From NCBI GenBank assembly GCA_043812855.1, contig JBDRLR010000076.1, positions 1 through 41,391 on the forward strand: a stretch of DNA of 41,391 bases, written 5' to 3'. Positions within the stretch are counted from its first letter, which is position 1; each line of letters begins with the position of its first letter. Source of the DNA: Nanobdellota archaeon (GTDB lineage Archaea > Nanobdellota > Nanobdellia > Woesearchaeales > JAHJEM01). Positions 9,994 through 38,413 of the stretch are shown piece after piece. The notes beneath the pieces were generated by a model that saw only the letters and a program-made list of their open reading frames with translations, searched no databases and was not told the DNA's origin. A program made the position numbers and the translations under genes.

Positions 9994-10009
9994 ATTGTGG
10001 CGCTAAACA

Positions 10010-10017: not shown

Positions 10018-10038
10018 TCCACCCCTCGACCGGTATAC

Positions 10039-14993: not shown

Positions 14994-14996
14994 ATG

Positions 14997-15068
14997 CGTC
15001 CCCGACCGGATTTGAACCGGTGACCTTGCGGTTAACAGCCGCACGCTCTACCGCTAAGCTACGGGGAC
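14997..15068 (-). tRNA. tRNA-Asn(GUU)
   Basis: Manual cloverleaf: acceptor GUCCCCG/CGGGGAC, anticodon arm UGCGG-CUGUUAA-CCGCA, T-arm ACCGG-UUCAAAU-CCGGU. It lies 3 nt upstream of tRNA-Ile. Confidence 0.9.
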
Positions 15069-15308: not shown

Positions 15309-15539
15309 GTGAGTACGGCGAAACGCAAGGAACCAAAAGGGATCACGATAGGCGACAGCATCGAGGTGCCAAGCTCCATCTTCCGCGACCGACGCGCGTG
15401 CGTGCTCGAGAGCGTCGTGTACTATCTCAAAGAGACCAAAGGACTGACGTTCCATCAGATCGCCGTGCTGCTCAACCGGGACGACCGCACCATCTGGACC
15501 GCATACACCCGCACCGTGAAGAAGCGGAGGCGACGATGA
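15309..15539 (+). CDS. small helix-turn-helix DNA-binding protein (HTH1; sigma-70 region 4 / LuxR-like HTH)
   Basis: LESVVYYLKETKGLTFHQIAVLLNRDDRTIWTAYTRTVKKRRRR. Paralogue of 25971-26195. GTG 15309 aligns with the paralogue's N-terminus (STAKRK vs MSKKRA); TTG 15294 is an alternative start. The stop overlaps the giant gene's ATG. Confidence 0.7.
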   Translation: MSTAKRKEPKGITIGDSIEVPSSIFRDRRACVLESVVYYLKETKGLTFHQIAVLLNRDDRTIWTAYTRTVKKRRRR

Positions 15540-21500: not shown

Positions 21501-24500
21501 TCAACAACGTCGTCACCTGCGGCGACACGATCAGCAGGGCCGGAAGCTACATCGCGAACGCGAGCGTCAGCAACTACGGCGGAGTCGGAGCGATATGCGT
21601 CAAGATCAACGTGAGTGACGTGAACCTGGACTGCAAAGGATACACGTTCGATGGCACGGACAGCTCAAATTCATATGGCATATACGCCTACGGGACACAG
21701 AGCGTCTGGACCAGGAACGTCACGGTCGGCAACTGCTCGTTGAACGACTGGAGCATCGGTCTCGACTATGTGTACCTCAATTCAGGACTGATAATCGACT
21801 CCAATGTCACCAGCGGCCGCTCTGGTGGAACAAGCTTCTTCATCGCGATAACAAACCAGACGAACATCACACGCGTCGTGAGCAGCGGCACGACGTACGG
21901 CATCAGGACGTCAAACACCAACAACAGCATGATACGGAACTCGACCGCCACGGACATCACTAGTCTGCACATAGTCTCTTCAGAAAACATCACATTACAA
22001 GGGATCAGCGCCAGCACAGGGACCACACTCGTCACCGTACAGTCCGGAGAGAATGTGAGCATCATCGATAGCGTCTTCGACTCATTCACAACCACAGGCA
22101 TCGAGCTTGACTATACCAACCGAATCACCATGACCAATCTGACACTCACTCATCCGACGGGAAGCAGCGCGAACGGCATCCTGTTCGTAGGATCAGGGAA
22201 CAACAGCGTGACCAACACGACAATCAGACGGATCGCAAGAGCGATAGATATGAATGGCTTTGCTGCCCTCAGCCTTCGCGCGGACGGAAACCTCATCGCC
22301 AACAACACGTTCGAGGACAATCAGTACGGAGTCTATATAGGCCCTACGACATCAAACACGATAGTAATCCTCAACAATATCACGTCGAACCGGATCATCA
22401 ACAGCAGCGAGTACGGCATCTACATCAGCATGGTCAATGCAGCCAACATCACCAACAACACCATCTGGAACAACTTCCTCAACAACACCAACAACAGCAA
22501 TGTCACGGACGGAACGTACAACGCATGGAACACGAGCAACACCACCGCCACCAACATCATCGGCGGAACGAAGATCATCGGCAACTACTGGGCATGGCCA
22601 AACGGAAGCGGATATTCGCAGACCTGCGCGGACCTCGACAACGACGACATATGCGACCAAGCATACACCCTGGCTGCGCAGAACGTCGACTACTGGCCGC
22701 TGACCGACCCCAACCGTGCGCCCTACATGAATGGTTCGCGCATCTCGCCGACGACCGCATACGTCAGCGACAAACTTCTAGGATACTGCAACGGCACGGA
22801 CCTCGACAACGACAACCTGACATACTACTACTCGTGGTACGTGGACGGAGTCAAGAACCAGACTGGCAGCAACAACAACGCGAGCATCCGCTTCTTTCCG
22901 GGAGTGGAAGCGAATGTGAACAATGTCACGAGCAACAATCTCGCCGCGGGCCAAAGCTGGATGCTGGAATGCATCGCGTACGACGGAGCATCCAACAGCT
23001 CAAAGATGAACAGCAGCAGCCTTGCCATCCAGAACAGCCTGCCTGCGGTGACGAACGTGCACATCGAGCCGGACCCAGCCATCACGACCGACACGCTGCG
23101 AGGATACTGCACGGCCACGGACGCCAACAGCCAGAACGTCACGTACAACTGGGCATGGTACCGCAACGGGACGGTGTACAGCACCGGACGGGAGGCTGGG
23201 ACTGCCTCCACTGTCACCATCAGACCCGACGGAGCCGGAGAGAACACACAGATCGAGTTCCAAGTCCCTGGCAGCGACAGCCACTGGGACAAGGTGGACG
23301 AGGCGACGGCGGACGACGATACCACGTACGTCTATACTGACCAACTCTCGTCGACTCCCAATACGACCCTAGACTTGTACACACTTGAATCTCCAGGCAT
23401 ATCGGATGGAACCATCAGCAAGATTGTGGTCACCGCTCGCCTCTATCAGTACGCGATCGGGGACGCATACGTGAAGAGGAGGTTCTCCGTGCGTACATCA
23501 TCCACCTACTATTCCACGCAGGCAAACCTCATCTTTGGTTGGCGCACAGCATCCAATACTTGGAACACTGATCCCGCAGGAGGAAGCTGGACGTGGAGCG
23601 CCATCGAAACACTGCAAGCAGGCATGGAGCTCGAAGTACAAGGCGATGATGTTCTGTCGGCAGTGGCTGGATTGTCTCAAGTCTATGCAATCATATCATA
23701 CAAGACCAACGTCCCCAACCACACGCAAGGCGTGGAATTCAACATCGCAAACATCTCCAACTCACTGACATCACACAACCAACTGTGGGTCCTCGAATGC
23801 TGGGCGGAGGACGGAATCGGCAACGGCACGAAGGTCAACAGCACCGCGCTGAACATCTCCAACTCGCCGCCCAACACGCCCACGCTCATCGCGCCAAGCA
23901 ATGACAACCAGACGGTGCACGAGCGACGCTTCGACTTCGACTGGAGCACCACCGACCTCGACAGCGACCCTCTGACGTACAACATCAACATCACCAGCAA
24001 CACCGGATGCGCAGGAGACATCCACATCACCGGCGACACGTACTCCAACTACACACCCACCGTCAATCTGTGCACCGTGGATGAAGACGGCGGGACGAAC
24101 GTCTACAACTGGACCGTCCAGGCATGTGACCCCCACGATTGCAGCGCATGGAGCGAAAGCTGGAACTTCACCATCGAACCCTACGTCTCCATCGCGTTCC
24201 TCAACAACGAGATCAACTTCGGCGACCTGCGATTGGGAGAGTGGAACGACACCAGCGACGACGACCCGCCCCCGTTCACGCTCGAGAACCAAGGGAACGT
24301 CCTGGCCGAAGTCATCAACGTCACCGCCAACGCATCCATATGGAGCAGCCAGCCGCTCGGCAGCGAATACTGGCAGATCAAAGCCGACAACTCCAGCGAG
24401 CCCGACTCATTCAACTGGTCCAATAGCACCACCAACTACGTGCCCATCAGCGCAAGCAACCAATCCATCATCGGCAGCCTGCTGTGGAACGACACCTCAG

Positions 24501-24598
24501 ACACCGTCGAGATCGACATCAACGTCAGCGTCCCCATGCAAGAACCGCCAGGGAACAAGACCGCCAAAGTCATCATCTGGTTCACCCAACTCACATGA
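15536..24598 (+). CDS. giant (~3020 aa) N-terminally anchored surface adhesin-like protein
   Basis: ATG 15536 follows GGAGG (15526-15530) and overlaps the HTH1 stop (ATGA). Domain order: ~85-aa charged coiled-coil N-terminus; one TM (AVAAIGAMLFVLFVVVMWL, ~15800-15856); Ig/cadherin-like modules; CBM-like jelly roll (NGDFEEG...YVIDAVQL, ~17210-17700); two tandem 105-aa modules (18308-18937); LamG-like module (LRFDGTNDYLNL...ADEIIVFNRAL, ~19060-19680); parallel beta-helix/NosD-like regions (~19800-22700, with GNYWAWPNGSGY..DLDNDDICD); further L-x-C..WY-x-NG..W-x-C-E..DG modules; an FN3-like module; and a C-terminal subunit-like domain (24176-24595). N-x-S/T sequons are very dense. Confidence 0.9.
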   Translation: MNEKIIAASKEIERLTHERDSTITTLEKYEHENYVGVLTDAEYFHRVIELTGGISEQQYIAGLNKAIGKKQEELEKLRKKYEGHDERKAVAAIGAMLFVLFVVVMWLPSGPTGYAVLDANTTVNAVPNITLVDEARLNISDILPDVDPAGVTVEMTRMPQVRLGYSDGILTFTSTGFPGQYTVRLTISDSETSITTDWFTITVLKDTAPTISGAPMHGPVEFGKPVTWTQTITAENTLLERIDKRIPVRLPRGYETLLIQDQDTGSSIDTFEITDVTADAVALDVRDEVGAGEEKTYTFTYTTPGPEKVEESIDRFTKRVRVSSVYNYSNVTVSADIGGYPAEAVRVWWMSDAGRALMDAALIDLDVDGLVDRAEWQVPHFSEQEFLVEITILNVQSYPAVGGTWTVRFNTTGVGDLAVRVINGTSWDDENDDFDLTFAQLQCGEDIIDASFITLTGQTSYVLVPNYTCNSTGGEISGVNTPGKHHLEFEFGGQKAWANNDASVITLLSPGNRTITSNQYVNFSCYVSDGDGIANITLYTNASGTWKANETEYPYGINLLAPNGDFEEGLGVMNTRNETMWNCVTGTCTRNTTSYVEGSSSMTIAGSNAYLRRYFDPPFDATGGVANTSQIEAGKTYTLSYWLKTDLTGGSMNVAYLGGITTAEYGVNPAIGLSISGSSAWTFYNITFTITAVGAQPQIRLPWPSGTSGGYVIDAVQLTQGTAPRAFTDDRYGYIGIEMDNGCTVPGACYTARTGANITYTLNNFTRISPSGSFYDQDFEHCQDTSRCQMNFTIQNVTYDGQYRMMVFGRDLNLTAGGIEFSDDGTTWNDYFEATGYALRYLKNITITGGKSDTMHFRKYAVDSGHHGWLDRIILVPITLTNYTANFSSINLSDGAFEWACRLIDNTSVTTFAAQNYTLFIGNVAPDQPIPNITGIGGTNNTNEDINCSAIITDPNANTTDVTVRWYNNSEFVLVEYFNNSYVNGTLFNATLGAGNTTRGDTWTCEMRLYDGNLHSGWGNSSTIAIANSAPDTQTPNISSVDGSNMSSADLNCSSIIGDLDGDTLDVSVRWYNNSEFALVDYYNNSYVNGTLFNATLGAGNTSGKDRWNCEIRTGDGTETSAWANSSAISIIDTTPPIITFVSPSPGNASTVYARWTSLSATVVDASRTAAWFDWNRSLLGYWSMEYSNATGILDNSTHDVTAQFKNGLNASGLHTGLFGTALRFDGTNDYLNLTSLISARNVTYGGWFYFDDFSCPGDYCVPMQQATSGDVGYEMYTDTTGKLWCYDGALASPTAGVTISAGTWHHIMCWHNSTHFGLYVNGTLQGVTRASTANPVAEDLVVGGGVDQNSYWFNGSADEIIVFNRALGGDEILTLFNNSANALAHNFTSLDAGTYNYTAYAMDDSGNLKITDVRNVVVDPDCSVDGTELIITTYKTCSNSTMRPTNLTINSGGTLMLDGVNLTVTGNTTVKSGGVLDVRNSHDSVWYNGPVTVTGLNNYSGVTVHMNGTCDGCVWMNVTGTIDMTDTTFTNGDDAASQYLFRAQPGAIVNIRGSLIEQSGYADTTYGRGPLIQSDYANITNTTFGDNFYGLVLDGAMHAHIHNSSLSAGTGGVSIYLRYANWTTINTTDIQTTSMALNCYQSGNVSVMNSTMTATPGTDFLQQVYMNDCDDWNITDTNITMHDNPAVQTDNVYLENSDRSIWSRVNITHEITIDASSGIMLQTSHDALFLSSYVEGMTWNPISAVDSEGFTAVDTKIVTGDGGDSAIFVSNSALTFLNVTHSANTVITASGGVIINKHRLRFAVKDDQGDAVDSVSVTLYNKTAQSEYGLTSGSDGNTTWNNATQYIQTGTTAFTYYSNYSANATHAGYTTASTTFNHTTSGTRNITISATPALSSGPNITNDPKLFNDIACKAVVRDADSSTLYVNYSWYKNGAKQISGQQAATNNTLATVTLTANYTINGESWQCEITPYDTFGYGTSTNSSAVTVNNVVTCGDTISRAGSYIANASVSNYGGVGAICVKINVSDVNLDCKGYTFDGTDSSNSYGIYAYGTQSVWTRNVTVGNCSLNDWSIGLDYVYLNSGLIIDSNVTSGRSGGTSFFIAITNQTNITRVVSSGTTYGIRTSNTNNSMIRNSTATDITSLHIVSSENITLQGISASTGTTLVTVQSGENVSIIDSVFDSFTTTGIELDYTNRITMTNLTLTHPTGSSANGILFVGSGNNSVTNTTIRRIARAIDMNGFAALSLRADGNLIANNTFEDNQYGVYIGPTTSNTIVILNNITSNRIINSSEYGIYISMVNAANITNNTIWNNFLNNTNNSNVTDGTYNAWNTSNTTATNIIGGTKIIGNYWAWPNGSGYSQTCADLDNDDICDQAYTLAAQNVDYWPLTDPNRAPYMNGSRISPTTAYVSDKLLGYCNGTDLDNDNLTYYYSWYVDGVKNQTGSNNNASIRFFPGVEANVNNVTSNNLAAGQSWMLECIAYDGASNSSKMNSSSLAIQNSLPAVTNVHIEPDPAITTDTLRGYCTATDANSQNVTYNWAWYRNGTVYSTGREAGTASTVTIRPDGAGENTQIEFQVPGSDSHWDKVDEATADDDTTYVYTDQLSSTPNTTLDLYTLESPGISDGTISKIVVTARLYQYAIGDAYVKRRFSVRTSSTYYSTQANLIFGWRTASNTWNTDPAGGSWTWSAIETLQAGMELEVQGDDVLSAVAGLSQVYAIISYKTNVPNHTQGVEFNIANISNSLTSHNQLWVLECWAEDGIGNGTKVNSTALNISNSPPNTPTLIAPSNDNQTVHERRFDFDWSTTDLDSDPLTYNINITSNTGCAGDIHITGDTYSNYTPTVNLCTVDEDGGTNVYNWTVQACDPHDCSAWSESWNFTIEPYVSIAFLNNEINFGDLRLGEWNDTSDDDPPPFTLENQGNVLAEVINVTANASIWSSQPLGSEYWQIKADNSSEPDSFNWSNSTTNYVPISASNQSIIGSLLWNDTSDTVEIDINVSVPMQEPPGNKTAKVIIWFTQLT
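18308..18937 (+). repeat. tandem duplication, 2 x 315 nt (105-aa Ig-like module) inside the giant gene
   Basis: Units start at 18308 and 18623. They share an identical 38-mer, GGGACGCTGTTCAACGCGACGCTCGGAGCAGGGAACAC, and the protein block VRWYNNSEF.LV.Y.NNSYVNGTLFNATLGAGNT. Confidence 0.85.
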
Positions 24599-25974
24599 AC
24601 GACACCGACAGAAGGATAGCGAAAGGTCAGACGCAGATGATACTCTGCCTGTTCATACTGCTCATCTTCTCCACAGGAGTCCACGCCCTCGGCGTCGCGC
24701 CATCGCGCACCGTCGTCGACTACACCGGACAGAAGGAGATCATCATCTCCGGACGCGTCCTCAACAATGAGGCAAAAGACATGCGCGTCCTCATCGTCCC
24801 CGCCGACGACCTCGCCGGTAGCGTGACCATCCCGCAGAACATCATCAGCCTCACCGCAGGCCAAGGAGAGGCGAAGTTCACCTACGCACTCGTCGTTCCG
24901 ACCAACCTGAGACCAGGACCCAACCTGCTCTCCATGCACTTCATCGCGCTGCCCGCAGAACGGCAGCAAGAGATCATCGTCGTCGGAGGAAAGCTCGTCA
25001 CGCTTGACACCGAACACGACACCGCCCAAATCAGCGCGACCAGCGCAATCATCCAGCAGGTCGTCATCCAAGTCCCCTACCCTGGAACGTACGCCGACGG
25101 AAAACTCTACGTCGGCGCAAGCGGCATCAACGAGCCCGTCACGTTCACCGCCAGCCTCCACAACCGCGGAGACACCCACATCAGCGCTCAAGGATACGTC
25201 CTCATCAAAGGCGCAACGAACGAAGAGATCGCGCGCCTGGACATCCCCGGAACCGTCGAGATCGACAGCAACGGCGAATCCAAGCTCGTCGCCCAATGGG
25301 ACGGAACGTCCAACGAAGGCATCTACTACGCCGAGTTCATCGTCACCTACAACGGCGAGACCCTCGTGCTCGACCAGCCATTCAACATCGGAAACAAGTA
25401 CATCGCGATCGAAGAGATCAATGTCAAGAGCTTCCGTCTCGGAGCCATCGCCAAGCTCGACGTGGCGCTCCTGAGCAAATGGAACGAACCAATCATGGAC
25501 GTCTACAGCGAAATGCAGATCCTCGACAAGGAAGGATCAGTCCTCGACACCTTCAAGACCAGCGAAGTCACACTGCCTGCCCGGGGCAAAGGCGTCGTCT
25601 CAGGATACTGGGACACAGAAGGCGTGCAGATCGGCGACTACGACGTCCAGGTCGTCGTCAATTACGCAGGAACGACCAGCCAGAAACTCTTCGACGCAGT
25701 CGTGTCGCTCGACTCCATCACGTTCAAAGGACAGACGCTCACCGGAGAAGTCATCGGCAGCCCGCAAAGCGGAGGCAAGCTGAGCCTGCTCATCATCCTG
25801 GTCGGCGTCCTCATCGTGCTGAACATCGGACTGTTCATCTTCATCAAACGATCATGGCGAGGGCGGCCGCCTCAAGGCGGACCGCAGCAACCCTACGCCT
25901 CGCCTCCCGTATCGTCGCCGAACATCGCTTCCGCTAGCGCGCCGCAACAACCAGGCCAGAGGTACGGTCCATGA
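24595..25974 (+). CDS. membrane-anchored multi-Ig (CARDB/PapD-like) surface protein, copy 1
   Basis: The ATG overlaps the giant gene's stop (ATGA). Signal peptide ..LLIFSTGVHA then LGVAPSRTVVDYTGQKEIIISGRVLNN. Several beta-sandwich modules. C-terminal TM LSLLIILVGVLIVLNIGLFIFI and a P/Q-rich tail. Paralogue of 27242-28444. Start at M38 of ORF 24484-25974. Confidence 0.85.
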   Translation: MNDTDRRIAKGQTQMILCLFILLIFSTGVHALGVAPSRTVVDYTGQKEIIISGRVLNNEAKDMRVLIVPADDLAGSVTIPQNIISLTAGQGEAKFTYALVVPTNLRPGPNLLSMHFIALPAERQQEIIVVGGKLVTLDTEHDTAQISATSAIIQQVVIQVPYPGTYADGKLYVGASGINEPVTFTASLHNRGDTHISAQGYVLIKGATNEEIARLDIPGTVEIDSNGESKLVAQWDGTSNEGIYYAEFIVTYNGETLVLDQPFNIGNKYIAIEEINVKSFRLGAIAKLDVALLSKWNEPIMDVYSEMQILDKEGSVLDTFKTSEVTLPARGKGVVSGYWDTEGVQIGDYDVQVVVNYAGTTSQKLFDAVVSLDSITFKGQTLTGEVIGSPQSGGKLSLLIILVGVLIVLNIGLFIFIKRSWRGRPPQGGPQQPYASPPVSSPNIASASAPQQPGQRYGP

Positions 25975-26195
25975 GCAAGAAACGAGCGAGCGGGCGTGTA
26001 TCGGAATCCACGAATGTACCCATCCCGACGGCAGTCATGACGGACCGATCGCTGAGCATCATGGAATCCATCGTCGAGCACCTCATGAGCAAAGGATACA
26101 CCTACCGAGAACTTGGAATCCTGCTGAATCGCGACGAGCGAACCATCTGGACTGTCGCCCATCGGGCAAAGCAGAAGCGCGCCACACAGCGATGA
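25971..26195 (+). CDS. small helix-turn-helix DNA-binding protein (HTH2), paralogue of HTH1
   Basis: IMESIVEHLMSKGYTYRELGILLNRDERTIWTVAHRAKQKR. The ATG overlaps the upstream stop (ATGA). Confidence 0.8.
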   Translation: MSKKRASGRVSESTNVPIPTAVMTDRSLSIMESIVEHLMSKGYTYRELGILLNRDERTIWTVAHRAKQKRATQR

Positions 26196-26214
26196 TACTT
26201 ACACTGTAAGTATC
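26194..26214. promoter_or_regulatory. perfect 21-bp palindrome GATACTTACA-C-TGTAAGTATC (putative HTH operator and/or terminator hairpin)
   Basis: It starts inside the HTH2 stop codon and shares its core with the four sites at 15181-15302. Confidence 0.5.
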
Positions 26215-26223
26215 GAGCTCCTG

Positions 26224-26252
26224 TTTTTTTCCGATGACGACGGTGGAAAAAA
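26224..26252 (+). terminator. T7 tract plus TTTTTTCC...GGAAAAAA hairpin after HTH2
   Basis: A T7 run at 26224-26230 is followed by an inverted repeat partner at 26245-26252. Confidence 0.45.
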
Positions 26253-26257
26253 GAAAG

Positions 26258-26267
26258 ATATTTATAG
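26258..26267 (+). promoter_or_regulatory. TATA box for the second surface operon
   Basis: ATATTTATAG. The downstream leader carries GGGTG (26312-26316) 6 nt before TTG 26323. Confidence 0.4.
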
Positions 26268-26322
26268 TATGAGGCCGAATGACAACATACATCAATAATC
26301 AAAACTAGAGTGGGTGTAAACA

Positions 26323-26568
26323 TTGAGAGACCAAAGTGACGTATCGAAGCGGACCATCGTTGTCCTGGTCGTCCTGGTCACTGTGCTCACCATTCTTGGT
26401 TCCCTGAGCGTGCTCAAAACCCTCGAGGACTTCAAACAGACGCAGAGCAGGTCAATGACTGAAGAAGGATCAGCACAACAGGTCGGACACGTCAGCATCC
26501 GCGTCATCGATGAGACTGAAGGAACGGACACCGCGACCGGCCGAGTACTGCTCTACGTAGGTGACTAA
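26323..26568 (+). CDS. 81-aa N-terminally anchored small protein (hypothetical)
   Basis: TTG 26323 is the only in-frame start. Basic N-terminus plus hydrophobic helix (SKRTIVVLVVLVTVLTILGSL), then a short beta-rich tail (GHVSIRVIDE..GRVLLYVGD). AGGTGA near its 3' end serves the next gene. Confidence 0.5.
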   Translation: MRDQSDVSKRTIVVLVVLVTVLTILGSLSVLKTLEDFKQTQSRSMTEEGSAQQVGHVSIRVIDETEGTDTATGRVLLYVGD

Positions 26569-26569
26569 C

Positions 26570-27236
26570 ATGGACATGTCGAATAGAACCCTTTCCGCGC
26601 TCCTCGTCGCGGCCATCGTACTCACTCTTGGGGCAAGCATCATCAGCCTTCAACAGCTCGGAAACGTGCTCGGTCCCACCGGATTCGCCACGTCAAGCAC
26701 AGGCATGGTGAACCTGACCATCCTCAGCCAGACCGACATCACACTCACTGGAGACAATATCGACTTCGGATCAGGAGTCGTCAACAGTTCATCTGCATGC
26801 AACAACGCCACCCTGCACTCCAACGGCAGCGGCGTGAACACCGACGCATGCTGGGTCAACCAATCACTCACACCCAACAGCGCCATCCCTGCAACCGAGG
26901 CCAAATTCATCCTCAACAACTCAGGAAATGTCAACATCTCAATCACAATGGACAGCGTCAAGAACAACGCGACCAACTTCATGGGGAACAGCACCGTCAT
27001 CCGACGCGCTCTACCAGTACACGGTCAACCACAACGGAAGCGGACAGCCCTGCCAGACCACGCTCGCGACGGGATGGAACAACTTCTCCGCGAGCGCGAC
27101 CATGGGCGTGTGCGGCGAACTCTTCTGGGAAGACGGTAGGGACGCCGTCGCCGTGGCCATCCTGGTCCGCATCCCTGAAGACGTCGAACGAGGATACAAA
27201 AGCGACAATCTGACATTCACGTCGGCGCAGGCATAG
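26570..27236 (+). pseudogene. beta-rich secreted small subunit, copy 1, interrupted by a +1 frameshift
   Basis: ORFs 26561-27139 and 26928-27236 together align end-to-end with 28921-29598. There is one extra C at 27001/27002 (ATCCGACGC versus ATCGACGC in the paralogue). ATG 26570 follows AGGTGA. Confidence 0.7.
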
Positions 27237-27241
27237 GTGCG

Positions 27242-28444
27242 ATGATGGGCGCACAACTATATACTCGTTCCATCACAGTATGCTTATTAGTCCTCTTCTT
27301 GTTCGTCCAGGGAACCTCAGCGATAGGCCTGCGAGGAGTCACGCTCAAGGACGAGATCTTCTTCCAACCAGGGATAGTGAGGGAATATGACTTCCTCCTG
27401 TATGCCAACGCAGGATTCACGCAGGACTACGAATTCTACGTGCGCATGTTCGAAGGAGACGACCTGACGCAATACGTCACGCTCGACAAGACCTATGTGG
27501 AGGACGTCGGGAGCGGTGGCAACGTCCCATTCCATGCCACACTGCGGCTACCTGACAAGATCGAGCACCCAGGCATCCACGACATCCGCATCGGCGTGAG
27601 GGAGACTGAAGTGGCGGGCGGCGGCGCGATCGGAGCGAAGACCGGAAGCGAAGCGCGAGTCATCATCTACGTCCTCTACCCTGACCCCTATCTCATCAGC
27701 CAATTCAACGCACGCAGCTTCAACGTCGACGAAGCAGGAGACTTCACATTCCAGATCAGCAACTTCGGCGAACCCTCAGTCATCGTCAACGGCGTCGTCG
27801 ACATCTACGACGCCGACGACAAGCACGTGACGACGGTCAGAAGCGAGAACCAACGCATCGAGCCCACCAAGAAGGTCCAGCTGCCTGTCCGCCTCGACAC
27901 CAAAGGCATGGTCCCGGGCCTCTACCGCGCCGAAGCCGACCTGTTCTGGGCCGCGAACGTGACCAACTTCACCACATACTTCAAGGTGGGCGACCTGAGT
28001 GTCAAAGTCGTCAACCACACAAAGGAAGTCAAGGCCGACGCCATCAGCAGCTTCATCATCTCCATCGAAAGCGGATGGAACAACAGGATCAAGGACATCT
28101 ACGGCATTGTCACCGTCCGCGACGCGCAAGGCGGAAAACTCAAGGAATTCAAGACCGTCAACACCGACCTTGATCCCTGGCAGCCCAAGGAATTGCAAGG
28201 ATACTTTGACGCCGACGGACTCGCGCCAGGGACATACCCCATCGACATCACGCTCTTCTACGAAGGCCTGCAGACCGTCGAACACGGAGAGGTCCTCGTC
28301 AGCGAAGACGCCCAAGTCGAGACATTCGAAGAGATACCAGGACAACCGAGCCTTCTTAGCATGCAGACACTGCTGATCATCGTGGTCTGCCTGCTCGTCG
28401 CCATCCTCGTCGCCCTCGCCGTCCTCGTCATCAGGAGGCGATGA
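27242..28444 (+). CDS. membrane-anchored multi-Ig (CARDB/PapD-like) surface protein, copy 2
   Basis: Signal peptide ..LFLFVQGTSA, beta-sandwich modules, and C-terminal IPGQPSLLSMQTLLIIVVCLLVAILVALAVLVIRRR. Paralogue of 24595-25974. AGGTG lies just upstream of the ATG. Confidence 0.85.
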   Translation: MMGAQLYTRSITVCLLVLFLFVQGTSAIGLRGVTLKDEIFFQPGIVREYDFLLYANAGFTQDYEFYVRMFEGDDLTQYVTLDKTYVEDVGSGGNVPFHATLRLPDKIEHPGIHDIRIGVRETEVAGGGAIGAKTGSEARVIIYVLYPDPYLISQFNARSFNVDEAGDFTFQISNFGEPSVIVNGVVDIYDADDKHVTTVRSENQRIEPTKKVQLPVRLDTKGMVPGLYRAEADLFWAANVTNFTTYFKVGDLSVKVVNHTKEVKADAISSFIISIESGWNNRIKDIYGIVTVRDAQGGKLKEFKTVNTDLDPWQPKELQGYFDADGLAPGTYPIDITLFYEGLQTVEHGEVLVSEDAQVETFEEIPGQPSLLSMQTLLIIVVCLLVAILVALAVLVIRRR

Positions 28445-28881
28445 TGAAGAGACGAGACGTGATCGTCCTGCTGGTGCTGGTCGCCGTGCTCGCATATGGC
28501 CTGACCAGCATGTTCTATCTGTGGCTCGGTCCCGCCGGACAGCATCGGATCCTCGGAGGCGAGACGGTCAACGTGACGCTCAGCATCACACCCTACCGTC
28601 AGATGAACTTCAACGCCAACACCGACGGACTCCACTTCGACGGAGTCCCCCAAGGGAGCTCCGCGCGCAAATACATCACCCTGACCAACATCCGAACCGT
28701 GCCAGTCAACGTCGAAGTCGCGATCACCGGAAACATCACGGCGTTCATGATCGCATACCCCTCATCATTCTCATTGGATCCTGGGACGTCCGCAAACATC
28801 ACAGTCTCAGTCGATGTCCCCTCCGAAGCGGAAGCGGCAAGCTACGATGGAAGTCTCATCATCGTCTACCGTCACACATAA
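28441..28881 (+). CDS. N-terminally anchored single Ig-domain protein (PapD/MSP/ASH-like pattern)
   Basis: ATG overlaps the upstream stop (ATGA), with AGGAGG at 28433-28438. TM VIVLLVLVAVLAYGL. Then FDGVPQGSSARKYITLTNIRTVPVNVEV..FSLDPGTSANITVSVDVP..YDGSLIIVY. Confidence 0.75.
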   Translation: MMKRRDVIVLLVLVAVLAYGLTSMFYLWLGPAGQHRILGGETVNVTLSITPYRQMNFNANTDGLHFDGVPQGSSARKYITLTNIRTVPVNVEVAITGNITAFMIAYPSSFSLDPGTSANITVSVDVPSEAEAASYDGSLIIVYRHT

Positions 28882-28890
28882 AACGCAATG

Positions 28891-28898
28891 TTTATATA
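28891..28898 (+). promoter_or_regulatory. TATA box for small-subunit copy 2
   Basis: TTTATATA is centred ~26 nt upstream of ATG 28921 (leaderless). Confidence 0.5.
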
Positions 28899-28920
28899 CC
28901 TGAATCATCGAAGCTGAAGC

Positions 28921-29598
28921 ATGGTCAGCAACCGTGCGCTCTCGCTTCTCATCGTCGCTGCGGTCGTCATCTCTGTGGGCGGGCAGATTTGGAGCGTCAA
29001 CCAGATACAATCCGCACGAATCCTGACACCAGGCCTCCCCACAGGCTACGCGGTCGCCGCGACAGGCATGGTGAACCTGACCATCCTCAGCCAGACCGAC
29101 ATCACACTCTCCGGCGACGTCATCGACTTCGGCACCGGCGTCGTCAACAGCTCGTCAGGATGCAACAACGCCACCCTGCACTCCAACGGCACCGGCGTCA
29201 ACACCGACGCATGCTGGGTCAACCAATCACTCACCCCCAACAGCGCTATCCCTGCGACACAAGCCAAGTTCATACTGAACAACTCAGGCAACGTCAACAT
29301 CTCCATCACGCTCGATAGCATCAAGAACAACGCCACCAACTTCCTCGGCAACAGCACCATCATCGACGCATTCTACCAGTACACTGTCAACCAGAACGGA
29401 AGCGGACAGCCCTGCCAGACCACGCTCGCGACGGGATGGAACAACTTCTCCGCAAGCAGTACGATGAGCGTGTGCGGCGAACTCTTCTGGGAAGACGGCA
29501 AAGACGCGGTCAACGTCGCCATCCTGGTCCGCATCCCCGAAGACGTCGAACGCGGATACAAGAACGACAACCTGACCTTCACGTCAGCCCAGGCATAG
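28921..29598 (+). CDS. beta-rich secreted small subunit, copy 2 (intact)
   Basis: N-terminal MVSNRALSLLIVAAVVISVGG. Then GMVNLTILSQTDITLSGDVIDFGTG..FILNNSGNVNISITLD..ELFWEDGKDAVNVAILVRIPEDVERGYKNDNLTF. Long stretches are nucleotide-identical to copy 1. It resembles the giant protein's C-terminal domain. Confidence 0.8.
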   Translation: MVSNRALSLLIVAAVVISVGGQIWSVNQIQSARILTPGLPTGYAVAATGMVNLTILSQTDITLSGDVIDFGTGVVNSSSGCNNATLHSNGTGVNTDACWVNQSLTPNSAIPATQAKFILNNSGNVNISITLDSIKNNATNFLGNSTIIDAFYQYTVNQNGSGQPCQTTLATGWNNFSASSTMSVCGELFWEDGKDAVNVAILVRIPEDVERGYKNDNLTFTSAQA

Positions 29599-29643: not shown

Positions 29644-31587
29644 ATGAAAAATGGCGGAATGCTCGTCGTGACACTTCTTCTCCTTGGCTTCGCCATCACC
29701 AGCAACGCCTACATCGTCATCAAGACCAAACAGATCACAGGCGCGGCGGTCGGAGAAGTGAGACTGTGCATCAACAACAAACCCGCAATGAGCAACCCTT
29801 GCTCGACATCCATGACGCAAGGCATCTACTTCAGCTGCAACGTCAACGGAAGCGACTACGACAACGATACGCTGACGTACAGCTCCACCTTCCTTTCCAG
29901 CCCGACCGTCTTCACCATCCGTAGCAACGGCACCATCGCCGTGACGCCGACCAACGCCGATGTGGGCAACCACACCGCCAACATCACCCTCGCCGACGAC
30001 GTCGGATGCCCAGACAACTCAGCATGGGAACTGTACCGCTTCGACGTCTCGAACGTCAACGACCCGCCCATCCTCACCCAGACTATCCCCGACCAAAGCC
30101 TCACCGAAGGAGTGAGGACCAGCGTCTTCTTCCTCACCGACCACTTCACCGACCCCGACGGAGACGCTATGACATTCACCGCATCCATCACCAGCGCATA
30201 CGAAATCACGATCCTCGCCAGCGGAGAAGTCCAGATGCTCGTGGAAGACTGCCAGGACACCACAGAATACGTCATCTTCACCGCAACCGACCCCTACAAC
30301 GCCACGACCGACAGCAACGTCGTCGAACTCACCTGCACCCAAGCAGGAAGCGGTGGAGGCGGTGGAGGCGGCGGAGGTGGAGGTGGAGGCGGAGGCAGCG
30401 GAGCCATCTCTGAGTGCGAATCAGAACTCTACTGCAACGCATGGTCGAACTGCAGCATCTACGCAACACAACAGCGACGATGCTACGACATCGGCGGATG
30501 CAAGGACGACATCTTCCTGCGACGCGCATGCCTCTACGCGGACACCTGCACCAACGGAGTCTGGGACACGGGAGAGCTTGGCGTCGACTGCGGCGGCCCC
30601 TGCGACGCGTGCGGCACCTGTAGCGACGGCATCCGCAACCAAGGAGAGCTTGGCGTCGACTGCGGCGGCTCCTGCGACGCGTGCGCCACCTGCTACGACG
30701 GGACGCAGAACCAAGACGAAGAAGGCGTCGACTGCGGCGGCTCCTGCGCCGCATGCGGGACGTGCGGCGACGGCATCAAGAACAACGACGAGACATCGAT
30801 CGACTGCGGCGGCTCCTGCGCGCCCTGCACAGAATTCCAGACACCAGGCATATTCGCGCTGCAATCCATCGTCGTACGGCTGCTCATGATCATGTCCATC
30901 ATCCTCATCCTGCTCGCGCTGCTCGCCCTCTTCGCCCGCAAGTGGCTACGCAAGACCCTGCAGAAGCTCGGCCTGATCAAAGACCACGTCAAATCCATCC
31001 TGCTCACCCCTGAGAAGAAACAGCAATTCCTCGAGAGGATCTATACGGTGGAGTCCGCCATCCCCTCCGTGTCGGGCAAGGACAACCAGGAAGCCGTGCT
31101 CTCCCTTCTCATAGACCTCTTCTCCGAGATGCTCAAGACACCTCGCGGCGTCACGCAAGCGGAACTGGACCGCATACTCCACACCCTGCCTCTGCAGGAA
31201 GACACGCGAAAACTGCTCATCCGCTTCGCCGCCCTCATCCACCTGCTCGAAGCCTCCAGGCTCAACGCCGACGAATGGGAAGTGAGGTCATGGACCGAGC
31301 AAGCCCGAACGCTTGTCGCCTGCGTGGCTCACTGCACATCAGATGACTTCAAACGCACCACCAGTCACGTGGAGATCGAAGCGAAAGGAGAGGCGCCGGT
31401 GCAATTCGCCCGACGCGTGGTCGATATGCTCATCGCCCTGCAGTTCCGCGAATACAGCCTTGCCGCAAAGAAATACCTGGTCCTGCAAGGCAAGTACGAC
31501 ACCCTGAGCGAACCGCGAAAGACCAGGGCTTACGCGGACCTCTATCGCTCGTTCACCATGATCGAGTATCTGCAGAAGTACGAATAG
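29644..31587 (+). CDS. single-pass membrane protein: cadherin-like ectodomains, Gly15 hinge, 4 Cys-rich repeats, TM, ~215-aa helical cytoplasmic domain
   Basis: Signal peptide MLVVTLLLLGFAITSNA. Cadherin-like modules with a VNDPPIL linker. A 15-residue Gly run. Four repeats of the form ..GE.GVDCGG.C.AC.TC. TM IVVRLLMIMSIILILLALLALFA. The C-terminal helical domain resembles 35734-36351. Confidence 0.85.
   Translation: MKNGGMLVVTLLLLGFAITSNAYIVIKTKQITGAAVGEVRLCINNKPAMSNPCSTSMTQGIYFSCNVNGSDYDNDTLTYSSTFLSSPTVFTIRSNGTIAVTPTNADVGNHTANITLADDVGCPDNSAWELYRFDVSNVNDPPILTQTIPDQSLTEGVRTSVFFLTDHFTDPDGDAMTFTASITSAYEITILASGEVQMLVEDCQDTTEYVIFTATDPYNATTDSNVVELTCTQAGSGGGGGGGGGGGGGGGSGAISECESELYCNAWSNCSIYATQQRRCYDIGGCKDDIFLRRACLYADTCTNGVWDTGELGVDCGGPCDACGTCSDGIRNQGELGVDCGGSCDACATCYDGTQNQDEEGVDCGGSCAACGTCGDGIKNNDETSIDCGGSCAPCTEFQTPGIFALQSIVVRLLMIMSIILILLALLALFARKWLRKTLQKLGLIKDHVKSILLTPEKKQQFLERIYTVESAIPSVSGKDNQEAVLSLLIDLFSEMLKTPRGVTQAELDRILHTLPLQEDTRKLLIRFAALIHLLEASRLNADEWEVRSWTEQARTLVACVAHCTSDDFKRTTSHVEIEAKGEAPVQFARRVVDMLIALQFREYSLAAKKYLVLQGKYDTLSEPRKTRAYADLYRSFTMIEYLQKYE
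30352..30396 (+). repeat. (GGN)15 simple repeat encoding a poly-glycine hinge
   Basis: ggt gga ggc ggt gga ggc ggc gga ggt gga ggt gga ggc gga ggc. A second (GGN)9 tract lies at 34985-35011 in the 1232-aa protein. Confidence 0.9.
30547..30834 (+). repeat. 4 x 72-nt tandem repeat encoding 24-aa Cys-rich modules
   Basis: GACTGCGGCGG recurs at 30586, 30658, 30730 and 30802, an exact 72-nt period. Consensus: C-x-(D/N)G-x-x-(N/D)-x-x-E-x-(G/S)(V/I)DCGG-x-C-x-x-C. Confidence 0.9.
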
Positions 31588-31958: not shown

Positions 31959-32052
31959 CGATCTGCACAAGAAACTCAAGCTCGAAGCGGTCAAGGCAGG
32001 CCGCACGCTCAAAGAACACATTATCACGATACTCGAACATGGCCAGAACTAG
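31930..32052 (+). CDS. 40-aa ribbon-helix-helix protein, copy C
   Basis: MAHINIQIPDDLHKKLKLEAVKAGRTLKEHIITILEHGQN. Its 3' end (CATGGCCAGAACTAG) contains the ATG (32039) of the 1232-aa surface protein. Confidence 0.6.
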   Translation: MAHINIQIPDDLHKKLKLEAVKAGRTLKEHIITILEHGQN

Positions 32053-36513: not shown

Positions 36514-37506
<993 letters not shown>

Positions 37507-37509
37507 ACC

Positions 37510-38412
37510 ATGCCACTCAAAGAGCTTCGCGTCGATCTGGCGCCCGGATTCAAGCGCATAGACATCAAAGGACGACGCGACATCCTCAGCCGCATCCTCG
37601 AAGGGCACTTCGTCACCCTCTTCAAGGGGAAAGGCATGGAGTTCACAGGGTATCGTTCCTACTCCTATGGCGACGACGCAAGCCTCATCGACTGGCCGGC
37701 GTCGCTTCGCTCACGCGAGACGCTGGTTAAGGAATTCGAGACATACCGCAACCTGTCCGTGTACATCCTGCTCGACGTGTCCAACAGCATGCTCTTCACC
37801 TCGACACGCGCCAACAAGCTCAAAGTCGAATACGCCGCGGAGCTGGCAAGCAGCCTCGCCTGGGCGGTGCTGCGCACCAACAACTCAGTCGGCATGAGCA
37901 TGTTCAACGACCATCTCGTGAATCGGATCTACCCCGACATCGGACAAGGCATGATCCGACGCATAAACAAAGACCTTTCCGACCCGCAGAAATACGGAGG
38001 CAACTTCGATCTGCGCCGCGCGCTGCAGGAACTGCGCGCATTCTACAAGGACAAGGCCGTGCTCATCATCATCTCAGACTTCCTAGGCATGAACGAAGGA
38101 TGGGAGCGATACCTCACCGGACTGCACGACCAGTTCGAACTGCTCGGAATCATGATCCGCGACCCACGCGACAACACCTTGCCGCACATGTACGGACAGG
38201 TCCGCGTCCAAGACCCCTACAGCGATGACGTCATGCTCGTCGACATCCACCAATACCGCGAAGAGTACGCCAAGACAGTAGAGGAAGAGGAGAAGCGGCT
38301 CCGAAACGCGTTCGGGGTGAGCAAGTACAGCTTCTTGTCCATCATGACGACCGACGACTTCAACGAGAAGATCATGAACTTCTTCCGCAGACGCGCAAGC
38401 ATACGAGGATAA
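37510..38412 (+). CDS. DUF58-domain protein (MoxR partner)
   Basis: GKGMEFTGYRSYSYGDDASLIDWPASLRSRETLVKEFE...VYILLDVSNSM matches the DUF58 pattern. It starts 4 nt after the MoxR stop. Confidence 0.85.
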   Translation: MPLKELRVDLAPGFKRIDIKGRRDILSRILEGHFVTLFKGKGMEFTGYRSYSYGDDASLIDWPASLRSRETLVKEFETYRNLSVYILLDVSNSMLFTSTRANKLKVEYAAELASSLAWAVLRTNNSVGMSMFNDHLVNRIYPDIGQGMIRRINKDLSDPQKYGGNFDLRRALQELRAFYKDKAVLIIISDFLGMNEGWERYLTGLHDQFELLGIMIRDPRDNTLPHMYGQVRVQDPYSDDVMLVDIHQYREEYAKTVEEEEKRLRNAFGVSKYSFLSIMTTDDFNEKIMNFFRRRASIRG

Positions 38413-38413
38413 T

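What the first reader, a model, noticed from the sequence alone, without database searches (positions are those of the whole stretch)
24595..29598. Duplicated three-part module with PapD/MSP-like hallmarks
Module 1 is 24595-25974, 26323-26568 and 26570-27236. Module 2 is 27242-28444, 28441-28881 and 28921-29598. Each has a membrane-anchored multi-Ig protein, a small N-terminally anchored protein and a beta-rich subunit. The mature N-terminus of copy 1 (LGVAPSRTVVDYTGQKEIIISGRVLNN) recalls the first strands of PapD/FimC-type chaperones; that pattern is recalled from memory, not searched. The 146-aa protein's domain (KYITLTNIRTVPVNVEV..FSLDPGTSANITVSV..YDGSLIIVY) fits the PapD/MSP/ASH Ig pattern. 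The layout also resembles Firmicute WxL/DUF916 surface-complex loci. Either analogy would be new for archaea.
Basis: inference. Interest (0 to 1): 0.7.

Follow-up and report, generated by a model that had tools for sequence, protein, structure and literature searches.

The report
Archaeal WxL-like surface adhesin cluster
This stretch of a tiny symbiotic archaeon's genome belongs to a widely conserved gene cluster for cell-surface proteins, whose membrane-anchored protein is related to one in the WxL surface-adhesion clusters of gut bacteria and which probably mounts a giant adhesin on the cell.

Summary
The ORFs exist, the two anchored multi-Ig proteins are paralogs (23% identity) and the two beta-rich subunits are about 88% identical in DNA. 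The 81-aa and 146-aa proteins are unrelated. Subunit copy 1 is broken by a 1-base frameshift. In 80 DPANN loci the conserved unit is S-C-A-B (small anchored strand protein, subunit, anchored multi-Ig, anchored single Ig). It is often preceded by a large adhesin ending in a C-like domain plus a second A paralog. The window reads giant(C-tail)-A1-HTH-S1-C1-A2-B2-C2-D. No PapD/FimC membership was found: no PapD_N hit, and no chaperone among the top 50 fold matches. The A family aligns over both Ig domains with bacterial WxL-interacting proteins (hhalign 97%, E 3e-11), and the gene layout mirrors WxL clusters. B is an ASH-type Ig domain. C has no Pfam or PDB sequence match, and its model best matches a donor-strand-exchange fibril (TLP-1a) and chaperone-usher pilins. 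C is not detectably a WxL domain. The likely function is a membrane-anchored complex or short fibre held by beta-strand complementation that displays giant adhesins. That mechanism is inferred.

The parts
15398..24598 (+). Giant surface adhesin ORF of 3066 aa (the true start may be further downstream). It has an N-terminal TM segment followed by PTGYA, a LamG domain and a NosD/beta-helix region. Its stop overlaps the A1 start (ATGA).
   Evidence: ORF. Pfam hits Laminin_G_3, NosD and Beta_helix. Junction sequence.
24020..24589 (+). C-like domain at the C-terminus of the giant adhesin (about aa 2875-3064). It is the same fold family as the small subunit C but has no TM leader of its own.
   Evidence: 66 bits against the C-family HMM (profile positions 82-208). 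205 bits against an HMM built from the C-terminal tails of large proteins that precede A genes in 7 other loci.
24595..25974 (+). A1: signal peptide, Ig domains and a C-terminal TM helix. It belongs to the A subfamily that follows large C-tailed adhesins.
   Evidence: Member of A-family alignment A5, which was scanned against Pfam and compared with WxLIP. Subfamily assignment.
25971..26195 (+). 74-aa helix-turn-helix protein with weak sigma-70 region 4 / LuxR-like hits. It overlaps the A1 stop (ATGA). In the other loci A and S are adjacent without the gap it occupies here.
26323..26568 (+). S1: 81-aa protein with an N-terminal TM anchor and two copies of the strand motif G-x-V-x-L-x-I (GHVSIRVI, GRVLLYV).
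   Evidence: S family found in 72 of 80 loci and encoded directly upstream of C in the common S-C order. Motif counts.
26570..27236 (+). C1: subunit copy interrupted by a +1 frameshift caused by an extra C at 27001/27002. It may be a pseudogene or an assembly error.
27242..28444 (+). A2: signal peptide, three Ig-like domains (aa 36-144, 151-250, 254-354) and a TM helix (aa 371-399). It is a WxLIP-like protein of the S-C-A-B cassette type.
   Evidence: AF2 model with pLDDT 86. hhalign against WxLIP, 97.2%. Pfam results.
28441..28881 (+). B2: N-terminal TM anchor plus a single ASH-type Ig domain. The domain is related to domain 1 of A and weakly to WxLIP_PGBD. Its start overlaps the A2 stop (ATGA).
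28921..29598 (+). C2: intact subunit of 225 aa. It has an N-terminal leader helix (aa 4-35), a linker with PTGYA, a conserved strand (TGMVNLTIL) and a Cys-containing beta-sandwich.
   Evidence: Family of 737 clusters. AF2 model with pLDDT 86. Foldseek matches to TLP-1a and chaperone-usher pilins.
29644..31587 (+). D: 647-aa cadherin/Big_9-like protein with a poly-Gly run, Cys-rich repeats, a TM segment and a cytoplasmic tail. Its N-terminus has a TM segment, ITGAA and the strand GEVRLCIN. In the locus set it is the commonest neighbour outside the S, C, A and B families.
   Evidence: Found in 21 loci. N-terminal motifs.

Best explanation
The region is the core of a conserved DPANN-archaeal surface-protein cluster. 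It is the archaeal counterpart of the Firmicute WxL/Csc 'cell-surface complex' cluster.

Shown here:
- A1 and A2 are membrane-anchored homologs of WxL-interacting protein (tandem DUF916-like and DUF3324-like Ig domains plus a C-terminal TM helix), with one extra Ig domain.
- B is a stand-alone, N-anchored copy of the first A domain.
- The C domain occurs in two forms. One is a small protein. The other is the last domain of a giant adhesin. This matches the small and large WxL proteins of bacteria.
- S is a tiny membrane-anchored protein carrying the same conserved strand motif that sits at the N-terminal end of C's domain.

Inferred mechanism:
1. After export, C-type domains are incomplete or edge-exposed beta-sandwiches.
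2. A (and possibly B) binds them by inserting a conserved hairpin strand, as AlphaFold2 predicts for WxLIP and WxL.
3. The TG-x-V-x-L-x-I strands of C and S then pair with C-type domains.
4. This links the giant adhesin through one or more C subunits to the membrane anchor S.
5. The result is a membrane-tethered stalk that presents LamG, beta-helix and cadherin-like adhesin domains for attachment to a host cell or a surface.
For: Homology of A to WxLIP:
- hhalign gives 97.2% probability and E 3e-11 over 207 collinear columns spanning the PGBD and HBD domains.
- 22 of 69 A members hit WxLIP_HBD.
- The A consensus scores 33 bits against a cut-off of 28.9.
- The bacterial reference loci are genuine WxL clusters.

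Matching layout:
- Published bacterial clusters hold a small WxL protein, a large WxL protein with N-terminal adhesin domains (including a beta-helix) and a C-terminal WxL domain, a WxLIP with a C-terminal TM helix, and often a small anchored LPxTG protein (PMC10599100, PMC9772566).
- Here the parts are the small C, a giant adhesin with LamG and beta-helix domains and a C-terminal C-like domain, A, and the small anchored S.
- The gene order S-C-A matches the order LPxTG-WxL-WxLIP seen in L083 and L102.

Conservation:
- S-C+-A-B occurs in 48 of 80 loci and C+A in 68 of 80.
- Two specialised A subfamilies exist, one paired with large adhesins and one with small C.

Fold of C:
- The AF2 model has pLDDT 86.
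- Its best PDB match is TLP-1a, a donor-strand-exchange fibril (E 4.8e-4). Next come the chaperone-usher pilins CsuA/B, FimA, FimG and Caf1 (PMC11494351).

Shared strand:
- The motif is present in 67 of 77 S proteins (twice in 43) and in 78 of 96 C proteins. The background rate is 5% per 40 aa.
- In the C2 model this segment is not paired into any sheet.

Other support:
- AF2 predicts that a WxLIP hairpin completes the WxL sandwich (PMC10599100).
- The hairpin of A at aa 111-144, with its invariant GG tip, aligns with the WxLIP segment GVIAGGL...YAYVV.
- Translational coupling (ATGA overlaps) links giant to A1, A1 to HTH, and A2 to B2.
Against: - C is not detectably a WxL domain. There is no Pfam WxL hit in 78 members, and hhalign gives only P 0.01-0.03. 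Only one of the cluster's families is shown to be homologous to a WxL-cluster protein.
- Domain 2 of A matches generic CARDB (39 bits) slightly better than WxLIP_HBD (33 bits).
- Window A2 alone scores only 14 bits on WxLIP_HBD.
- The WxLIP motif NQIDKxxxYFDLK does not appear in the A-family consensus or in the aligned region.
- The match of C to TLP-1a has a low TM-score (0.36), and the pilin matches have E 0.02-0.3.
- S and C strands do not co-vary significantly within loci (z 1.4, p 0.08).
- These archaea are not expected to have peptidoglycan (general knowledge of archaeal cell envelopes; not tested here), so the role proposed for bacterial WxL cannot carry over.
- No complex could be modelled and no experimental data exist.
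- The loci were collected through C's N-terminal motif, so co-occurrence is measured only given that C is present.
Confidence: 0.55

Rival explanations
1. A true chaperone-usher-type pilus. A and/or B would be PapD/FimC-family periplasmic chaperones, and C the pilin.
For: The C model resembles chaperone-usher pilins (CsuA/B E 0.025, FimA, FimG, Caf1). B falls in the ASH/'PapD-like' Ig clan.
Against: There is no PapD_N or PapD_C hit in any A or B member or consensus sequence. No PapD-type chaperone appears in the top 50 Foldseek matches of A2. No usher was found among the window ORFs scanned, and archaea have no outer membrane. A and B are membrane-anchored, not soluble. The PF14874 'PapD-like' family is the ciliary ASH type, not the pilus chaperone family.
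Confidence: 0.04
2. C, S and D are type IV pilin-like proteins. Their shared N-terminal motif and hydrophobic helix would be a class III signal, and they would be assembled into a pilus by type IV machinery encoded elsewhere. A and B would be accessory surface proteins.
For: The N-terminus is conserved across families: [DE]-I-S-N-K-T-L-A in C, D-I-S-K-R-T in S and h-S-N-N-I-I-A in D. It is followed by a hydrophobic helix. The C2 model has a long N-terminal helix at aa 4-35. The S consensus gives a weak PilX_N hit (E 0.072).
Against: The motif lacks the [KR]-[GAS] cleavage context known for archaeal class III signals (my own knowledge). In the model the helix is separated from the beta-domain by a low-confidence linker rather than packed on it. 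A conserved TG-x-A site lies after the helix, which fits signal peptidase I-type processing. No archaeal pilin or archaellin appears among the top 50 fold matches. No recurrent cluster of neighbouring genes in the 80 loci resembles a pilus ATPase, platform protein or prepilin peptidase.
Confidence: 0.1
3. The genes encode generic, independently acting Ig-like envelope proteins (S-layer or CARDB-type). They would sit together only because they share regulation or secretion, with no specific complex.
For: The top Pfam hits for A are generic E-set families (CARDB, FixG_C). Foldseek matches of A include an archaeal S-layer protein, alpha-2-macroglobulin MG domains and RbmA.
Against: Gene order is fixed across dozens of species-level genomes. 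Two A subfamilies track two forms of the C domain. S and C share a strand motif. Start and stop codons overlap between neighbouring genes. A aligns collinearly over two domains with WxLIP, which is reported to occur in fixed clusters with its partners (PMC10599100).
Confidence: 0.12

Closest known systems
Firmicute WxL / Csc cell-surface clusters (small WxL, large WxL, WxLIP = DUF916+DUF3324+TM, small LPxTG protein)
   Same: The A family is homologous to WxLIP over both Ig domains and shares the signal peptide and C-terminal TM helix. There are the same kinds of parts: a partner domain that occurs alone and also as the C-terminal domain of a large multi-domain adhesin with a beta-helix, plus a tiny anchored protein. 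The gene order is the same: small anchored protein, small subunit, WxLIP-like protein. In both systems the tiny anchored protein carries a short strand motif resembling the one at the N-terminus of the small subunit.
   Different: C shows no detectable WxL domain or W-x-L motifs. A has a third Ig domain and lacks the NQIDKxxxYFDLK motif. There is an extra protein, B. Anchoring is by TM helices, not sortase/LPxTG, and the hosts are not expected to have peptidoglycan (general knowledge, not tested here). In C the linker lies before the strand, whereas WxL proteins have a Pro-rich linker after it. The hosts are DPANN archaea, while 91% of known WxL sequences are from Firmicutes (PMC9772566).
TLP-1a/b environmental fibrils (CryoSeek; PDB 9ikj), assembled by donor-strand exchange
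   Same: TLP-1a is the best structural match of the C2 model (Foldseek E 4.8e-4, probability 1.0). Both have an Ig-like sandwich with an N-terminal strand that AF2 leaves unpaired in the monomer (PMC11494351).
   Different: The TM-score is only 0.36 and sequence identity 10%. The reported relatives of TLP-1 are bacterial (top model from a Flavobacteriales bacterium), and the top model A0A2M8AA21 has a 22-residue signal peptide predicted by SignalP. No polymer has been shown for C.
Chaperone-usher pili (PapD/FimC chaperones; Fim, Csu and Caf pilins)
   Same: C weakly resembles these pilins in fold. In the proposed mechanism an Ig-like escort protein donates a strand, and a tip adhesin carries a C-terminal pilin-like domain as FimH does. 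That is a parallel in how it may work, not in ancestry.
   Different: There is no PapD-family chaperone by sequence or fold, no usher and no outer membrane. The escort candidates are membrane-anchored.
TasA/TapA/SipW fibres and archaeal bundling pili, threads and cannulae
   Same: These are extracellular Ig-like or jelly-roll subunits polymerised by donor-strand complementation, some of them in archaea (PMC9245690, PMC12518558, PMC10151520).
   Different: No Peptidase_M73/TasA hit appears among the listed Pfam matches of C members, and no TasA, Abp, thread or cannula subunit is among the top 50 fold matches. The accessory genes are different.

Membership tests
PapD/FimC pilus chaperones (Pfam PapD_N PF00345, PapD_C PF02753) | Sequence match to PapD_N and PapD_C | tested here: not met
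   No hit for A1, A2 or B2, for 69 A members, for 51 B members or for the family consensus sequences at E up to 1.
PapD/FimC pilus chaperones (Pfam PapD_N PF00345, PapD_C PF02753) | Two-lobed Ig chaperone fold | tested here: not met
   The A2 model has three beads-on-a-string Ig domains. No PapD, FimC or Caf1M chaperone chain is among the top 50 Foldseek PDB matches.
PapD/FimC pilus chaperones (Pfam PapD_N PF00345, PapD_C PF02753) | Partner usher in the same operon | tested here: not met
   Pfam scans of the window's large ORFs found no usher. No recurrent cluster of neighbouring genes in the 80 loci looks like one.
ASH / MSP / 'PapD-like' Ig clan (for B) | Profile match to ASH-type Ig domains | tested here: met
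   The B-family profile hits Hydin at 6.6e-11 and FAP65 at 2e-10. The consensus scores 32.9 bits on Cep192_D3 against a cut-off of 27. ASH (26.1 bits) and PF14874 (24.7 bits) fall just below their cut-offs. Window B2 alone is below the cut-offs.
WxL-interacting protein (WxLIP: DUF916/PGBD + DUF3324/HBD + TM helix) | Signal peptide and C-terminal TM helix flanking tandem Ig domains | tested here: met
   Sequence. The A2 model has helices at aa 4-27 and 371-399 and three beta-sandwich domains.
WxL-interacting protein (WxLIP: DUF916/PGBD + DUF3324/HBD + TM helix) | HBD (PF11797) match | tested here: met
   22 of 69 members match at E<0.01, the best at 6.6e-8. The consensus scores 33 bits against a cut-off of 28.9. 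Window A2 alone scores 14.2 bits. CARDB scores slightly higher (39 bits).
WxL-interacting protein (WxLIP: DUF916/PGBD + DUF3324/HBD + TM helix) | PGBD (PF06030) domain in front of HBD, collinear | tested here: met
   Pfam alone finds it in only 1 of 69 members. hhalign against 12 non-redundant bacterial WxLIP proteins aligns A positions 40-249 with WxLIP positions 50-288 across both domains, at 97.2% probability and E 3e-11.
WxL-interacting protein (WxLIP: DUF916/PGBD + DUF3324/HBD + TM helix) | Conserved NQIDKxxxYFDLK motif | tested here: not met
   The motif does not appear in the A-family consensus or in the aligned region.
WxL cluster (at least one WxLIP plus two WxL proteins within a few genes) | Partner proteins carry the WxL domain (PF13731, two W-x-L motifs) | tested here: not met
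   No WxL hit in 78 C members. hhalign of C against small WxL gives P 0.03 and core against core P 0.011, against 0.25 for a reversed control. C occupies the same place in the layout and comes in the same small and large forms.
Donor-strand-exchange fibre subunits (TLP-1, chaperone-usher pilins, TasA) | Ig-like fold with an acceptor groove, an N-terminal donor strand, and polymer formation | tested here: inconclusive
   Fold matches: TLP-1a at E 4.8e-4 with TM 0.36, and pilins at E 0.02-0.3. A conserved N-terminal strand is left unpaired in the monomer model. Groove and polymer could not be tested because no multimer modelling was available.
Archaeal type IV pilins (class III signal peptide) | Cleavage motif [KR]-[GAS] before the hydrophobic helix, the helix packed on the beta-domain, and pilus machinery genes | tested here: not met
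   The N-terminus reads S-N-[KR]-T-L, or S-N-N-I-I in D. The helix is followed by a low-confidence linker. No recurrent cluster of neighbouring genes resembles pilus machinery. The cleavage-motif criterion comes from my own knowledge.

The most novel reading that the evidence does not exclude
The cluster builds a true donor-strand-exchange fibre on a DPANN archaeal cell. The giant adhesin's C-terminal C domain would be the tip. C subunits would polymerise through their N-terminal TG-x-V-x-L-x-I strands. The membrane-anchored S protein would end the fibre and anchor it with the same strand. The membrane-tethered WxLIP-like proteins A1 and A2 (with B) would act as strand-donating chaperones. This would be a chaperone-usher-like logic without an usher or an outer membrane. 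The same logic would then probably apply to the homologous bacterial WxL clusters, whose small LPxTG protein copies the N-terminal strand of the WxL proteins of its own locus.
Probability: 0.3. Interest if true: 0.85.

Novelty: new variant of a known kind. Interest (0 to 1): 0.62.

Why it matters
DPANN archaea (Woesearchaeota, Nanoarchaeota) are mostly obligate episymbionts, and little is known about how they attach to their hosts. This cluster is widespread in them. The C family has 737 clusters at 50% identity, and 77 loci turned up in one scan of species-representative genomes. It pairs giant adhesins with a dedicated set of small anchored proteins. One of those proteins is homologous to the WxL-interacting protein of gut Firmicutes.

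This gives a concrete, testable candidate for the DPANN attachment apparatus. It extends a surface-display system thought to be largely restricted to Firmicutes and dependent on peptidoglycan to archaea, which are not expected to have a peptidoglycan wall. It also suggests that strand complementation, not cell-wall binding, is the conserved core of both systems. No paper in the searched library mentioning the WxL domain or DUF3324 together with archaea (those listed) concerns an archaeal WxL system.

Tried and rejected
- The word-indexed protein search with C2 found only C2 itself and its paralog. With A2 it found 4 relatives. With the A alignment it found nothing new. These searches greatly understate the family sizes; the exhaustive search found 737 C clusters.
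A hand-made degenerate DNA pattern was used instead.
A2 was therefore modelled from 6 sequences, and B, S and all complexes could not be modelled.
- C against WxL: local hhalign, greedy hhalign, global hhalign and a reversed control were all not significant.
- Within-locus covariation of the S and C strands was not significant (z 1.4, p 0.08).
- PDB sequence searches with the C, A and WxL profiles gave nothing useful.
- Neighbouring genes were searched for pilus machinery or a dedicated peptidase. Only the D family recurs often. A Sec11-type signal peptidase candidate lies nearby in just 3 loci.
- TasA/camelysin was considered because of the N-x-G-N motif and rejected. No such hit appears among the listed Pfam matches or the top 50 fold matches.
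- A 'recent tandem duplication' was rejected. A1 and A2 are 23% identical and fall into separate conserved subfamilies.

Full report
**Source and setting.** NCBI labels the window's proteins as coming from a metagenome-assembled 'Nanoarchaeota archaeon' (locus tags ABIH41_029xx). Archaeal housekeeping genes lie around the region: NMD3, the archaeal helicase domain 4, a Toprim primase-like protein and tRNAs. All genes of interest are on the + strand, between a 3066-aa ORF (15398-24598) and a MoxR/DUF58/VWA operon (36514-39367).

**Checking the observation.**
- A1 (24595-25974) and A2 (27242-28444) are full-length paralogs with 23% identity and E 5e-19.
- The two 'beta-rich subunits' are about 88% identical in DNA.
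- Copy 1 is not one ORF. An extra C at 27001/27002 splits it into 26561-27139 and 26928-27236. Removing that base restores a 221-aa protein that is 82% identical to C2.
- The two 'small N-terminally anchored proteins' (81 aa and 146 aa) are unrelated (E 86).
- The claim of a duplicated three-part module is therefore only partly true.

**Finding relatives.**
- The word-indexed search found almost nothing.
- An exhaustive HMMER search with C2 found 737 clusters at 50% identity. Nearly all are full-length proteins of 200-240 aa.
- The two contigs that encode A2 relatives already showed conserved neighbours.
- A degenerate DNA pattern for the invariant N-terminus of C retrieved 77 loci from species-representative genomes. 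Nearly all are labelled Woesearchaeota, Nanoarchaeota or Pacearchaeota.
- Iterated HMM searches over the six-frame ORFs of the window and the 79 related loci (80 in all) defined four families. S is about 80 aa, C about 220 aa, A about 400 aa and B about 142 aa.
- S-C+-A-B occurs in 48 of 80 loci, S-C+-A in 62 and C+A in 68. Many loci are cut off by contig ends.

**The second unit.**
- In 16 loci another A gene sits immediately upstream of an S-C pair. Where the upstream sequence is held, that A follows a C-type hit.
- In at least 7 of these the upstream 'C' is the last ~140 residues of a large protein.
- The window's giant ORF ends in such a domain. It scores 66 bits against the C HMM and 205 bits against an HMM of those tails.
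- The window therefore reads giant(C-tail)-A1-HTH-S1-C1(frameshifted)-A2-B2-C2-D.
- A proteins that follow large adhesins are each other's best hits across loci. The same holds for cassette-type A proteins (T-to-T 8, M-to-M 50, T-to-M 2).
- A1 and A2 are therefore old, specialised paralogs, not a recent duplication.
- ATGA start/stop overlaps couple giant to A1, A1 to HTH, and A2 to B2.

**What the proteins are: A.**
- The AF2 model of A2 (pLDDT 86) has a signal helix, three beta-sandwich domains and a C-terminal TM helix.
- Its Foldseek matches are generic tandem-Ig arrays. The best are Hydin/CFAP ASH repeats. No PapD-type chaperone is in the top 50.
- No A member hits PapD_N. By contrast, 22 of 69 hit WxLIP_HBD (DUF3324) and 12 hit CARDB.
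- For the A consensus, CARDB scores 39 bits, FixG_C 37.9 bits and WxLIP_HBD 33 bits. All three exceed their cut-offs.
- To test the WxL lead directly, I fetched 29 bacterial loci through the published WxLIP motif NQIDKxxxYFDLK. Pfam confirmed them as WxL clusters.
- hhalign of the A family against 12 non-redundant WxLIP proteins gave 97.2% probability and E 3e-11 over 207 collinear columns covering both WxLIP domains.
- Controls were negative: A against WxL gave P 0.016 and C against WxLIP gave P 0.1.
- A is therefore a WxLIP homolog with one extra Ig domain.

**What the proteins are: B.**
- B is an N-anchored single Ig domain of the ASH type.
- The family profile hits Hydin at E 6.6e-11.
- The consensus scores 32.9 bits on Cep192_D3, above the cut-off.
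- B is related to domain 1 of A (96%) and weakly to the PGBD part of WxLIP (74%).
- Window B2 on its own stays below the cut-offs.

**What the proteins are: C.**
- C has no Pfam or PDB sequence match.
- The AF2 model (78 sequences, pLDDT 86) shows a leader helix at aa 4-35, a low-confidence linker and a beta-sandwich.
- The best PDB match is TLP-1a (E 4.8e-4, probability 1.0, TM 0.36). TLP-1a is an environmental fibril assembled by donor-strand exchange (PMC11494351).
- The next matches are the chaperone-usher pilins CsuA/B, FimA, FimG and Caf1, at E 0.02-0.3.
- C is not detectably a WxL domain.

**A shared leader and strand.**
- C, S and the large downstream D proteins share an N-terminal motif followed by a TM helix. 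The motif reads [DE]-I-S-N-K-T-L-A in C, D-I-S-K-R-T in S and h-S-N-N-I-I-A in D.
- C and D then have a conserved T-G-x-A site, followed by a strand.
- The motif G-x-[VIAT]-x-[LIVFM]-x-[IVLF] occurs in 78 of 96 C proteins. It also occurs in the short ectodomain of 67 of 77 S proteins, twice in 43 of them. The background is 5% per 40 residues.
- The two logos are nearly the same: [ST]-G-x-V-x-L-x-I.
- In the C2 model this segment has high confidence but is not paired into a sheet.
- T-G-x-A fits the -3/-1 rule of signal peptidase I. That is an inference from general knowledge.

**Comparison with what is known.**
- Published bacterial WxL clusters contain a small WxL protein, a large WxL protein with N-terminal adhesin domains (including a beta-helix) and a C-terminal WxL domain, a WxLIP with a C-terminal TM helix, and often a small LPxTG protein.
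- AF2 predicts that a WxLIP hairpin strand completes the WxL beta-sandwich. The N-terminal strand of WxL is suspected to rearrange (PMC10599100, PMC9772566).
- The archaeal cluster has matching parts in the same order, and A is homologous to WxLIP.
- The differences are these. C is not a recognisable WxL domain. A has a third Ig domain and lacks the NQIDK motif. B is extra. Anchoring is by TM helices rather than sortase. The hosts are not expected to have peptidoglycan (general knowledge, not tested here).

**Mechanism (inferred).**
- A, and perhaps B, escorts or holds C-type domains by inserting a strand.
- The strands of C and S pair with C-type domains.
- This ties the giant adhesin, through C, to the membrane anchor S.
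- Whether the result is a discrete complex or a polymeric fibre cannot be decided here.
- S and C strands do not co-vary significantly within loci (p 0.08).
- No multimer modelling was possible.

**Verdict.**
- The PapD chaperone reading is rejected as family membership.
- The ASH-type Ig call for B holds at clan level.
- The WxL/DUF916 analogy holds for A and for the layout.
- No paper in the searched library mentioning the WxL domain or DUF3324 together with archaea (those listed) concerns an archaeal WxL system.
- I rate this a new variant of a known kind, of moderate to high interest, because it offers a concrete candidate for the attachment apparatus of DPANN archaea.

Noticed in passing
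L080-L108 (bacterial WxL loci), e.g. L080:9955-10323(-), L083:3603-3953(-), L102:3660-4028(+): In bacterial WxL clusters, the mature N-terminus of the small LPxTG protein copies the N-terminal strand of the WxL proteins of the same locus. In L080 and L088 both read Y-x-S-N-G-x-[IV]-x-F. In L083 and L102 both read S-K-x-x-[IV]-x-F. This locus-specific match hints at a shared strand-binding site and mirrors the archaeal S and C motif.
   Followed up: partly
window 26990-27010: A single extra C at 27001/27002 (ATCCGAC against ATCGAC in copy 2) frameshifts subunit copy C1. It is not in a long homopolymer. It could be a real pseudogene or an assembly artefact between 88%-identical paralogs.
   Followed up: partly
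window 25971-26195 (+): A 74-aa protein consisting only of a helix-turn-helix (weak Sigma70_r4_2 and LuxR-type hits) lies between A1 and S1 and overlaps the A1 stop. In the other loci A and S are adjacent without this gap. A 2026 paper reports an HTH-only regulator, RwpL, in work on L. plantarum adhesion that discusses WxL extensively (PMC13522541). I saw only its abstract in the search listing.
   Followed up: no
window 29644-31587 (+) and 32039-35737 (+); L001:2657-5710 and 6469-10203: Two further large surface proteins follow the cassette here and in L001. The first, D, has cadherin/Big_9-like domains, a 17-residue Gly run and four Cys-rich 'GVDCGGxCxxC' repeats. It ends in a TM segment and a ~200-aa cytoplasmic tail with no Pfam match. 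In the locus set D is the commonest neighbour outside the S, C, A and B families (21 loci).
   Followed up: partly
window 9251-9964 (-): A 237-aa membrane protein carries the motifs SGSM, GDII, HRV and GDNN. From my own knowledge these are typical of archaeal/Sec11-type signal peptidase I. Pfam gave no hit. Relatives lie near the cassette in L051 and L065. It is a possible processing enzyme for the T-G-x-A site.
   Followed up: partly
window 14894-15068 (-) and 14242-14907 (+): Two adjacent tRNA hits lie here. tRNA-Asn was called by both tools. A second, 100-nt Rfam tRNA hit was missed by ARAGORN and may contain an intron. An ORF with a LAGLIDADG_3 domain overlaps the start of the second tRNA hit.
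   Followed up: no
window 36514-39367 (+): A MoxR AAA+ ATPase, a DUF58 protein and a VWA/BatA protein form a compact operon (Bat-like) downstream of the surface-protein genes. VWA/BatA-like ORFs also appear in L036 and L040.
   Followed up: no
L011 and L023: Contigs assigned to a 'Baldrarchaeota' MAG and a 'Micrarchaeota' MAG encode S and B proteins identical in sequence. Their A and C proteins have identical lengths and HMM scores. Many loci are titled 'uncultured Methanosarcinales' although they carry this DPANN-type cassette. The bin taxonomy labels look unreliable.
   Followed up: no
L035:4326-4916 and 10 other loci: A protein of about 190 aa with no signal sequence and no Pfam match recurs in 11 loci. 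In L035 it lies between B and D.
   Followed up: partly
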